63,733 nt of DNA from Selaginella moellendorffii. Its lineage: Eukaryota; Plantae; Lycopodiophyta. Both the position numbers and the translations under genes were made by a program. Shown here in pieces: positions 29,309 to 31,435 of the stretch. The notes under the pieces are model-generated. The model had not been told where the DNA came from and did no database searches. It was given only the letters and a program-made list of their open reading frames with translations. Every line of letters starts with the position of its first letter. Position 1 is the stretch's first letter. The stretch spans positions 336,477-400,209 of the forward strand of contig NW_003314382.1 in assembly GCF_000143415.4 (NCBI RefSeq). The letters are read 5' to 3'.

Positions 29309-29336
29309 TTAGAGTTAGGGTTCTTGAAAGTAGGAG

Positions 29337-31154
29337 ATGACTTCTTTGGACGGTAAGACGCCATTATCCGTGCTGTGACCTGATATTTGTTCCAGTTCTG
29401 TTTGAGATGTTTGGGAGCTATCACAACTCGCGGTTTGTGGAGTGCCGCCCAGGCAACGCGATGAAAGTTCTCCCGGACGAGCCAAAAGCGGGCTGCTTCT
29501 TCAAGCTGACGCTTCACTGCCCCGCCGTTGTCCCATGGAGCAAGCTTCTCTATGTTCGTCATGACTGTGTGGAGCTTTTTAAGGCATTGGAGCTTGAGCT
29601 TCTCGAGCAGGAGGAACGCCTTGCGCAGGAAGATGCGCAGGGAGGGAGTGCGGAGGAAGAGAGGGCAGCTATCCCGTTTTGGAAGTTCTTCACAGGGCAC
29701 TCGGGGACTGGAAAAACGATGATTGGCCTGCAGCTCTTGTTTACGTTCATGAAGAAAGGACGCACTGTTGTGTACCATAACAAGATCATGTCTTCCGGCT
29801 ACGCAGTCTTCAAAGAGAAGAAGCTTCATTCCGTGGGGGATAGAGCTAAGGTTGATGGGTATTTGGGTGACCAGCGGACGATCTTCATAAATGACAGCTC
29901 TGCTTTCGAGGCGATCGGTTTGATAGCAGCTAACATGTTGCTGATTGCAGATCCTGATTTGGTCGATAAAGACTTTTTCAAGACGAATGATGTTTTCTAC
30001 GGATGCTTGTGGAGTGAAGAGGAGCTCAGGGAGTGCCACAACTTCGTGTTTAGGGGGGGACTAGATTGGGGTGATGTGCAGCAGCACATTTACTATGCCG
30101 GTTTTGTTCCAAGGCTCGTGTTCCAGCAACCACGGCGGTTCCATTCTGTTCTCAGCCAGCTGGAGGCTGAAACGGGACACGAAAAATCACTGCTCTCCGT
30201 GATCTCTGCGGTTGGACCCTATTATCTGGACAAGGAGTTCCCGGATTACAGTGTCCACCTTGACAGAGGATCTTATTCGGCTGAAGGTTACACGAAGATT
30301 GGCTCGAAGTTTATAATGGAACAGCTGCTTTTGCAACTTGACGTGCCACACTGGCGCGATGCGCTTGTATCCTACAAGATGCGGCGAGGTCCCGTGGCGG
30401 ATTTCAGAGGAGAGATCATGGAACTGCTGATGCATCTCACGTTTCCAAAGTTCCTCGCTGACTGAGAGCAGATCCTGCCCCGGACCATGCCCGCTCGAGC
30501 TCCAGGCAACGTCCAAAAGCTGGTGGTCGATGAGCAGGAGGATCTTCACGTCTATTTCTACTCCAGTTTTGAGGATTTGGAGGTGAAGATCAAGGATTGC
30601 CTGGACAAAGGTGTGAAGGCAGCTTATTTCTGGCCAAGGTTGCAGACGGATGCTGTCGTAGACAGCGTTTTCATTGACTTCAAGCGGCAAGTTACGTTCC
30701 TCCTGCAGGCCACTGTGGCCAAGACGCGTAGGACTGTTGTCTGGCACCCAGTTCACAAGCTGGTAGGCTTCCTACGTCAAAACAGCATAGGAGTTGCAGG
30801 GCTGTATTTTGTGATATCAGAAACCAGCTATACTCACTTCGGCTACCAGACCTGGAAGAAGGTGAGAGGGGTGCACCAAGATGAGTTGATACTGCCCGAT
30901 CTTCCTCAGTACAAGGTGAAGTTTAAGGTGCTCGAGAGCGACATGGAAAACCTGGAAAAGCTGCAGGAGTACAGGGACGGCATTGATGAGAGCTTGAAAC
31001 TGATGGCGGTAAACACTTGTGTGCATATCAACATTCTTGACAAATTTATTTATTTTGGCAGAAATTCGGCAATGATATGCCAGAGTGCTGTATCCGCAAG
31101 CGAAGGCGGACGACTGACATGGACGTGGAAACTACTCCAACTGCGTGCGTGTGA
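29337..31154 (+). pseudogene. Crinkler/RHS-type (CR) P-loop NTPase + PD-(D/E)xK-like nuclease gene interrupted by one in-frame TGA (30463-30465)
   Basis: ORFs 29407-30465 and 30487-31200 are in the same frame. Motifs: LYVRHDC, Walker A TGHSGTGKT, IFINDS, WSEEEL, GFVPRLVF, GEIMELLMH, then YFWP..DAVVDSV..LLQATV. Predicted short introns at 29353-29395 and 31009-31061; the last exon has RKRRR. Confidence 0.7.
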
Positions 31155-31435
31155 GTTTTCTGTAATTGCTTGTGAATGTTGGTTGGCTGAGCCGCTTTGA
31201 GCAGGACGCCTTATGCGTGGAGTGATCCGCTGGAAAAGCTTGGAGTGCATGACCGTTTTTTGCAAGGTCCAGACTTATGTTGATTTACTTTCTCCTACAG
31301 AGTGAGTAGTGTTGGAGGGCACAAGTTTTGATAACTCTTAGTTTGATAGCTCGAACCCACGACGCCTTTAATCGAGACGTGTAGCGCCCACCAAACCACC
31401 AAAAGCTTAAACACCATTAAATAGATAAGGTGATA

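What the first reader, a model, noticed from the sequence alone, without database searches (positions are those of the whole stretch)
29309..31435. Crinkler/RHS-type NTPase-nuclease gene wedged between the two halves of a tandem duplication
Seen: a ~2.1 kb unit unrelated to its neighbours. It encodes a P-loop NTPase (GHSGTGKT, IFINDS, WSEEEL, GFVPR, GEIME..H) followed by a YFWP..D..D..LLQAT module, and a predicted last exon with an NLS-like RKRRR. It lies exactly at the junction of a direct duplication (27092-29308 vs 31436-33340). Knowledge: this motif order is that of CR (Crinkler-RHS) NTPase + restriction-endonuclease-fold proteins, known as oomycete, fungal and trypanosome effectors and proposed to derive from transposons. 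Inference: this may be a mobile or toxin/defence nuclease module in a plant whose insertion caused, or was captured by, a kb-scale duplication. The single in-frame TGA (30463) in otherwise clean coding sequence suggests recent inactivation or readthrough.
Basis: partly seen in the sequence, partly recalled or inferred. Interest (0 to 1): 0.8.

Follow-up and report, generated by a model that had tools for sequence, protein, structure and literature searches.

The report
Crinkler-type gene inside an old duplication
A spikemoss gene of the Crinkler/RHS family (an ATPase joined to a predicted nuclease) sits between two copies of a duplicated stretch of DNA; it was likely copied in by a DNA-repair accident, likely stayed useful while the spare flanking copies decayed, and carries a premature stop that other copies of the same gene lack.

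Summary
Observation confirmed. A 2.1-kb unit (29309-31435) separates two direct copies, about 90% identical, of a tail-to-tail pair of gene ends (an EGY-like M50 protease and a laccase). Each gene survives once; the spare halves have lost 46% of their bases in 41 alignment gaps.

The unit encodes a Crinkler-RHS (CR) type NTPase plus a C-terminal domain homologous to that of a Crinkler-header protein (HHalign probability 94.7). It has no Crinkler header. It belongs to a small, dispersed Selaginella moellendorffii family, one member of which UniRef already names Crinkler.

The TGA is an allele-specific nonsense change, not readthrough: a 97%-identical annotated protein and another sample's DNA are open there. 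The 1.6-kb main exon has no frameshift where about 18 are expected at the flank rate, so the gene was likely under selection after the duplication, or arrived later.

I found no terminal repeats, short target duplication or Helitron hairpin, and saw no empty site. A 71-bp piece of another locus at the right junction looks like repair filler. Best reading: one template-switching repair event, not shown transposition. A nuclease fold was not shown structurally. New member of a known kind.

The parts
27092..28723 (+). Duplication copy 1, left part: intact 3' two-thirds of an EGY-like M50 metalloprotease gene (gene starts near 26620)
   Evidence: Peptidase_M50 hits below curated cut-off; spliced and expressed in raw RNA reads; EGY name is recalled, not from a call
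28724..28833 (.). Copy 1 of the short spacer between the two convergent stop codons
   Evidence: 98 of 108 bases match 32325-32446
28834..29308 (-). Duplication copy 1, right part: decayed laccase 3' fragment
   Evidence: 431 of 473 match copy 2; 13 gaps, 421 bases missing
29309..31435 (+). Inserted unit: CR gene with 28 bp of 5' flank, short 3' flank and a foreign 71-bp piece
   Evidence: No other match in the window but 46 bp; left junction spanned by contigs of another sample (records 5 and 11)
29337..29352 (+). Predicted first exon with ATG, followed by a predicted 43-nt GT-AG intron 29353-29395
   Evidence: Splice letters and phase; N-terminus resembles P0032; splice not seen in reads
29396..31008 (+). 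Main exon: P-loop NTPase (Walker A 29695-29718), helical linker, CR-type C-terminal domain
30463..30465 (+). Premature TGA between NTPase and C-terminal domain; allele-specific
   Evidence: Open in P0014/P0032 and in contigs of runs X2/X3; same as the window in a contig of X6
31009..31061 (+). 53-nt intron
   Evidence: GT..AG joint in one contig of run X6 (table 5)
31062..31150 (+). Exon with basic RKRRR patch (possible nuclear localisation signal)
   Evidence: basic patch also in P0003 and P0006
31205..31283 (+). Predicted last exon
   Evidence: Matches the C-terminus of P0014; splice not seen in reads
31363..31433 (-). 71-bp piece shared with a different, transcribed locus; likely repair filler
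   Evidence: Loose ends before 31363 and behind 31433 in DNA contigs, RNA? contigs and raw RNA reads; X5 record 23 has 6 other letters in 71
31436..32324 (+). Duplication copy 2, left part: decayed EGY-like fragment
   Evidence: 796 of 881 match copy 1; 28 gaps, 751 bases missing
32325..32446 (.). Copy 2 of the spacer
32447..33340 (-). Duplication copy 2, right part: 3' part of the intact laccase gene (continues to the right)
   Evidence: Cu-oxidase hits; 313 of 315 residues identical to annotated laccase-13, P0041

Best explanation
This is a Selaginella Crinkler-RHS-type gene (P-loop NTPase plus predicted restriction-endonuclease-like domain, no Crinkler header) lying between two direct copies of a 2.6-kb stretch; it was likely copied in from elsewhere as genomic DNA in the same break-repair event that made the duplication, likely stayed under selection while the spare flank copies decayed, and is interrupted by a stop codon in this allele but not in others. 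Inferred mechanism: a broken end switched templates to a CR donor locus and to a 71-bp piece of a third locus, then rejoined about 2.6 kb upstream. That left one intact protease gene and one intact laccase gene, so the event was harmless. The protein would act inside the cell, likely in the nucleus, as an NTP-regulated nuclease in defence or genetic conflict (inferred from family knowledge; untested). Shown: layout, asymmetric decay, family kinship, polymorphic stop, one splice. Inferred: single event, repair route, selection, function.
For: Insert abuts both copy ends with at most a few bases of overlap. Foreign 71-bp piece at the right junction, in the size range of maize repair filler (PMC2686159 section 14). 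Intron kept and spliced, so not a retrocopy. No terminal inverted repeats or hairpin. Dead flanks: 41 gaps over 2526 ancestral bases, 28 not a multiple of three; 17.9 frameshifts expected in the 1611-bp exon, 0 seen, Poisson P 2e-8. 28 listed differences to another sample's allele: 12 synonymous, 16 not, ratio 0.37. An annotated 91-97%-identical protein lies on a record of the same length (2,450,372) as the 99%-identical laccase, and another sample spans the left junction, so the layout is likely old and shared. Family.
Against: No donor locus, paralogue flank or outgroup locus could be read. Junctions are old and differ between samples near 29300-29306, so end signatures may have eroded. A later insertion exactly at the junction would also explain the clean frame. 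The gap count may overcount events (neighbouring gaps), and the 28 differences are a cut list, not all. Only 28 bp lie between the left junction and the predicted ATG, and raw RNA depth is 0-1.4 over the gene against 15-50 over EGY, which sits uneasily with long selection. Fold search of the C-terminal domain was inconclusive.
Confidence: 0.58

Rival explanations
1. The CR gene is a self-mobile element: its nuclease makes widely staggered cuts, and fill-in gives a kilobase-scale target duplication that leaves any hit gene intact.
For: Exact duplicate-insert-duplicate layout. Family copies lie on records of at least 8 different lengths; one subclade has near-identical copies on records of four lengths. 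CR NTPase+REase proteins are linked to transposons and to Medea1 (PMC5289972 section 11; PMC11342252 section 19).
Against: One instance only. No shared element ends seen; the right end is a piece of an unrelated locus. No terminal inverted repeats. Few copies, most 38-57% identical. Separately assembled haplotypes inflate the record count.
Confidence: 0.1
2. The CR gene was a resident neighbour, carried in a larger tandem duplication; later deletions removed the rest of copy 1 and the second CR copy, leaving it apparently wedged at the junction.
For: Dead DNA here erodes fast by deletion (46% lost). A 15-27-residue relic of a family member lies at 42678-42767.
Against: The relic is on the opposite strand, and no longer similarity was found around it. 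The insert's flanks match nothing to the right of the laccase. It needs two large, exact losses.
Confidence: 0.12
3. The duplication came first; the CR gene was inserted at or near the junction much later, so its clean frame reflects youth, not selection.
For: Explains zero frameshifts without selection; short 5' flank and low expression; several versions are now broken in different ways.
Against: Needs a second event exactly at the junction. The closest known paralogue is only 57-59% identical, so no recent donor is in view. Alleles differ by 3-15% of residues by region.
Confidence: 0.12
4. A circular intermediate (Helitron-like or other extrachromosomal circle) carrying the CR gene plus a captured flank recombined into the matching site.
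For: A single crossover gives this layout. On the minus strand the unit starts near TC and ends in CTAA. Phytophthora CRN genes are associated with Helitrons.
Against: No hairpin (z -0.68). The base after CTAA is A, not T. The TC end lies in a piece that belongs to another locus. The CTAA end differs nearby in another sample.
Confidence: 0.06
5. The TGA is read through or recoded and the gene is functional as it stands.
For: Single stop in an otherwise clean frame; a contig of a guessed RNA run carries it (X6 record 28).
Against: All four paralogues, P0014 and P0032 and both contigs covering the place in X2 and in X3 are open at that codon: a private one-base change.
Confidence: 0.02

Closest known systems
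CR (Crinkler-RHS-type) proteins with NTPase + REase C-terminus (Zhang et al. 2016, not held; known here through PMC5289972 section 11 and PMC11342252 passages)
   Same: [quoted passage not shown]
   Different: No ubiquitin-like Crinkler header and no evident other header; sits in a kilobase duplication; this allele is interrupted.
S. moellendorffii SELMODRAFT_412051 / LOC9640051 (P0032, P0014) and paralogues SELMODRAFT_422610, 425539 (UniRef: Crinkler family protein), 426502, LOC112343089
   Same: P0014/P0032 are 91-97% identical and likely the same locus in another haplotype; paralogues are 38-59% identical and form one group on a tree.
   Different: P0014/P0032 are open at the stop codon but their models skip two parts of the NTPase half, which suggests other breaks; the duplication context is not described in what I could search.
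Trypanosome retrotransposon hot spot (RHS) proteins
   Same: Related P-loop domain (weak PF07999 hits) and C-terminal features.
   Different: No RHS_N domain hit; no retroelement inside the gene; small family.
Tribolium Medea1 element (CR-NTPase8 + CR-REase7, per PMC11342252 section 19)
   Same: Same two-domain plan in a free-living host; insertion with captured host DNA (the latter recalled).
   Different: No Tc1 ends or transposase here; no evidence of distorted inheritance; clade assignment not tested.
Repair-mediated duplication with filler DNA (PMC2671141 abstract; PMC2686159 section 14)
   Same: Local duplication plus short foreign filler at a junction.
   Different: Here a whole 2-kb intron-bearing gene is carried along and the duplication is about 2.6 kb, larger than the 619-bp maximum in that abstract.

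Membership tests
CR NTPase+REase proteins | N-terminal P-loop NTPase of STAND/AAA+ type | tested here: met
CR NTPase+REase proteins | Sequence kinship to CRN/RHS NTPases | tested here: met
   11 of 33 alignment members hit PF07999 at E<=0.01, best 6.3e-4, below the curated cut-off; phmmer reaches Crinkler-header protein P0025 at E 3.8e-4; Atlas score 0.98 for paralogue P0003 to a 'Crinkler (CRN) family' cluster. The window protein itself has no PF07999 hit.
CR NTPase+REase proteins | C-terminal domain homologous to the CR C-terminal domain | tested here: met
   HHalign of 8 Selaginella versus 8 distant C-domains: probability 94.7, E 6e-8, score 52 against at most 14 in 30 column shuffles (4 of 20 rows dropped for lack of the anchor motif)
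CR NTPase+REase proteins | Restriction-endonuclease (PD-(D/E)xK) fold by structure | tested here: inconclusive
CR NTPase+REase proteins | Conserved E...D...Q active-site-like residues (assignment recalled) | tested here: met
   E (GEIME), D (VDS), Q (LQAT) align with E, D, Q in most distant members; kept in the window, D and Q replaced in P0002/P0006
CR NTPase+REase proteins | Nuclease or toxic activity | not testable with these tools
   Needs an assay
CRN effectors in the strict sense | N-terminal ubiquitin-like header with LxLFLAK (PF20147) | tested here: not met
   No PF20147 hit in the window protein or Selaginella paralogues; 1 of 33 members has it
Cut-and-paste DNA transposons | Terminal inverted repeats and short target duplication | tested here: not met
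   None of the 25 longest of 35 inverted pairs and none of the 20 largest direct families in 29200-31600 mark both ends; old ends may have eroded
Helitrons | 5' TC, 3' hairpin plus CTRR, insertion between A and T | tested here: not met
   TC and CTAA present on the minus strand, but no hairpin (z -0.68) and wrong flanking base
Retrocopies | Loss of introns | tested here: not met
   53-nt intron present and spliced in one contig
Mobile element with kilobase target duplication | Other copies flanked by their own long direct duplications; empty sites | not testable with these tools
   No genome held; no empty-site joint among the 15 of 17 joints shown
Medea-like selfish elements | Transmission distortion | not testable with these tools
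   Needs crosses

The most novel reading that the evidence does not exclude
The Selaginella CR family is an endless-style mobile element in a land plant: its own NTPase-nuclease makes cuts staggered by kilobases, so each new copy lands between long direct duplications that keep host genes intact; copies persist as selfish or defensive nuclease loci and then decay allele by allele.
Probability: 0.1. Interest if true: 0.85.

Novelty: new member of a known kind. Interest (0 to 1): 0.42.

Why it matters
Why free-living plants keep Crinkler-like genes is an open question (stated in PMC12957317, introduction passage). This locus carries its own neutral control: decayed duplicates of the same age on both sides show what unselected DNA looks like here, and the gene did not decay that way, yet it now has open and broken versions. 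That makes the selection history testable. If paralogues share the duplicate-insert-duplicate layout, it would be direct evidence that CR genes move themselves, which has been proposed from domain kinship only. On present evidence it is one repair accident involving a known kind of gene.

Tried and rejected
No genome is held, so paralogue flanks, the donor and the filler's source could not be read.

Hemizygosity: half depth over the insert in run X2 first suggested an empty haplotype. I dropped this. Two different versions of copy 2 (joint 27224-31552; insertion at 31551) and a second, gapped version of the gene (X2 record 5) occur in the same sample, and contig depth is no copy number. The 27224-31552 joint is best read as a copy-2 allele; a pop-out recombinant is not excluded.

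No RNA holder was listed. Raw reads of X18 gave too little depth to show splices in the gene.

Fold searches of the C-terminal domain found no clear match; whole-model searches were filled by the NTPase. The PDB profile search gave only Walker-A hits. A profile search of the word-indexed database returned only 5 Selaginella proteins.

A deamination-tolerant alignment found no whole decayed copy in four AT-rich stretches. An opposite-strand joint 29784-29950 in X3 is absent from X2 of the same sample and was set aside.

Literature searches found no paper on this Selaginella family. Zhang et al. 2016 and its supplements were not available and may list it. Searches on large target duplications gave no matching case. 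Earlier scan notes held nothing on this locus.

Full report
1. Observation. The two flanks are direct copies. Global alignment gives 796 of 881 matching bases for 27092-28723 versus 31436-32324, 98 of 108 for the spacer, and 431 of 473 for 28834-29308 versus 32447-33340; K2P distances are 0.104, 0.099 and 0.095. The duplicated unit holds the 3' ends of two convergent genes: an M50 protease (Pfam hits below cut-off; 'EGY-like' is my recalled label) and a laccase (313 of 315 residues match annotated laccase-13). Decay is reciprocal: copy 2 lacks 28 stretches of the protease part against 3 in copy 1; copy 1 lacks 13 stretches of the laccase part against 2 in copy 2. Each gene therefore survives once, and the ancestral unit was about 2.6 kb. 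The 2127-bp insert abuts both copy ends and matches only 46 bp elsewhere in the window.

2. Gene model. Predicted ATG at 29337, 28 bp inside the left junction; predicted 43-nt intron; main exon 29396-31008; intron 31009-31061, spliced in one contig of run X6; exon 31062-31150 with RKRRR; predicted last exon 31205-31283, matching the end of P0014. In raw RNA reads of X18 (12% of the run read) depth over the gene is 0-1.4 on the sense strand, against 15-50 over most of the protease gene.

3. Family. The word-indexed search found 4 proteins, all S. moellendorffii, 38-54% identical, one named Crinkler family by UniRef. The exhaustive search with the NTPase half found 22 at E up to 0.001: 6 from Selaginella and 16 others at 23-36%, from brown algae, mycorrhizal fungi and unnamed assemblies where a name was given; one of the 16 (P0015, a repeat protein) was left out of later alignments. 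No named hit came from another land plant. Of 33 aligned members, 11 hit the RHS P-loop family at E up to 0.01 (below its cut-off) and 1 has a Crinkler header. The Atlas places paralogue P0003 next to Crinkler and RHS clusters (scores 0.98 and 0.94), and its C-terminal part next to euglenozoan clusters (0.94-0.95). A profile of 8 Selaginella C-terminal domains matches a profile of 8 distant ones led by the Crinkler-header protein with probability 94.7, E 6e-8, score 52 against at most 14 in 30 shuffles; 4 of 20 rows were dropped for lack of the anchor. The E, D and Q that I recall as active-site positions are kept in the window's copy. The 11 Selaginella rows form one side of a branch with support 100 in a quick tree of 22 rows.

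5. The stop codon. P0014 is 223 of 231 identical and open there; so is P0032. Both lie on a record of 2,450,372 bases, the length also given for the laccase: likely the same locus in another haplotype, though adjacency was not shown. In runs X2 and X3 (one sample) both contigs covering the place lack the stop, one of them with only 2 differences in 203 bases. A low-depth contig of X6 bridges the place and equals the window. So the stop is real, polymorphic and private: a nonsense allele. Other versions look broken elsewhere: the P0032 model skips two parts of the NTPase half, and a second version in X2/X3 has several small indels (table 4; it may be a paralogue). Whether any allele is whole was not established.

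6. Selection. The dead flanks show 41 gaps over 2526 ancestral bases, 28 not a multiple of three, removing 46%. At that rate the 1611-bp main exon should have about 18 frameshifts; it has none (P 2e-8). Halving the gap count would not change the conclusion. Among 28 listed differences to the X2 allele (a cut list; the stop codon left out) 12 are synonymous, ratio 0.37: weak support. Either the gene was kept by selection for most of the time since the duplication, or it arrived later exactly at the junction. I prefer the first, but the 28-bp 5' flank and low RNA depth count against it.

7. Origin. No inverted repeats or short direct repeats mark both ends among the rows shown. Helitron-like TC and CTAA letters exist on the minus strand, without hairpin and with the wrong flanking base. 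The last 71 bases (31363-31433) also occur in another locus that is transcribed on the other strand and continues differently on both sides. That resembles repair filler (PMC2686159, abstract and section 14 read; PMC2671141, abstract only). No empty-site joint is among the 15 of 17 joints shown for 26300-35000; another sample spans the left junction. I laid 7 of the 23 listed runs. The simplest account is one template-switching repair event (0.58). Rivals: later insertion (0.12), larger duplication then deletion (0.12), self-mobility with long staggered cuts (0.10), circular intermediate (0.06), readthrough (0.02). Paralogue flanks would decide between the first and the fourth, and could not be read.

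8. What is known. Zhang et al. 2016 defined CR proteins; I did not see it. PMC5289972 (passages and section 11 read) reports that CR proteins occur in land plants, that NTPase plus REase is the commonest C-terminus and that they are linked to transposons. PMC11342252 (passages and section 19) links the same plan to Medea1. PMC12957317 (abstract and passages) describes a different, ADP-ribosyltransferase Crinkler-like gene spreading with transposons in fish. PMC6119762 (passages) is not relevant. Searches found no paper on the Selaginella family; the unseen paper and its supplements may list it. One earlier scan note (e1-10289741, unchecked) mentions another decayed spare gene copy in this genome.

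9. Verdict. A real and well-described feature; a new member of a known kind. It works like a header-less CR NTPase-nuclease (function inferred), is not a CRN effector in the strict sense, and is not shown to be a transposon. Interest 0.42; 0.85 if the family proves to make kilobase target duplications (probability 0.1).

Noticed in passing
window 42678-42767 (-): Short relic of another CR-family member (YGRLWSEEELKQ-type motif, tblastn E 6e-5 within the window) in an 18%-GC stretch, about 300 bp from an LTR element; no longer match around it.
   Followed up: partly
window 43070-49793 (+), 1907-9122 (-), 60653-62502: Three copies of an LTR retrotransposon with short (~174 bp) terminal repeats; aspartyl protease, RT and RNase H hits; copies 73-82% alike; the middle one holds a 12-bp-unit tandem array at 45093-45594.
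   Followed up: partly
window 1-2000, 23000-25000, 41000-43000, 59000-61000: Sharply AT-rich islands (18-28% GC) in a ~50% GC genome, three of them beside the LTR elements.
   Followed up: partly
window 31436-32324 and 28834-29308: Dead duplicates lose nearly half their length by many small deletions at only about 10% substitution, and versions in another sample carry different deletions: a strong local deletion bias.
   Followed up: yes
window 29890-30045: Differences between versions cluster in the Walker B to sensor region: 95 of 112 residues identical to P0032 in the NTPase core against 175 of 180 in the C-terminal domain. Could be gene conversion from a paralogue or diversifying selection.
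   Followed up: partly
window 14778-19180, 25144-26397, 38830-40731, 51481-54899, 57187-58763: Several PPR genes and partial local PPR duplicates.
   Followed up: no
window 26462-26535 (-) and 37803-37886 (-): tRNA-Lys(CTT) just upstream of the EGY-like gene, and an 84-nt tRNA-like call with a four-base anticodon reading, perhaps an intron-bearing tRNA.
   Followed up: no
runs X5, X6 laid at window 29577, 30083, 30924: Loose ends show contigs of other family members in guessed RNA runs, one 1866 nt long at depth 41, and one paralogue not recognised among the proteins I fetched.
   Followed up: no
window 36345-37733 (-) and 16781-17749 (+): Long open frames (462 and 322 codons) with no Pfam hit at E 1e-4.
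   Followed up: no
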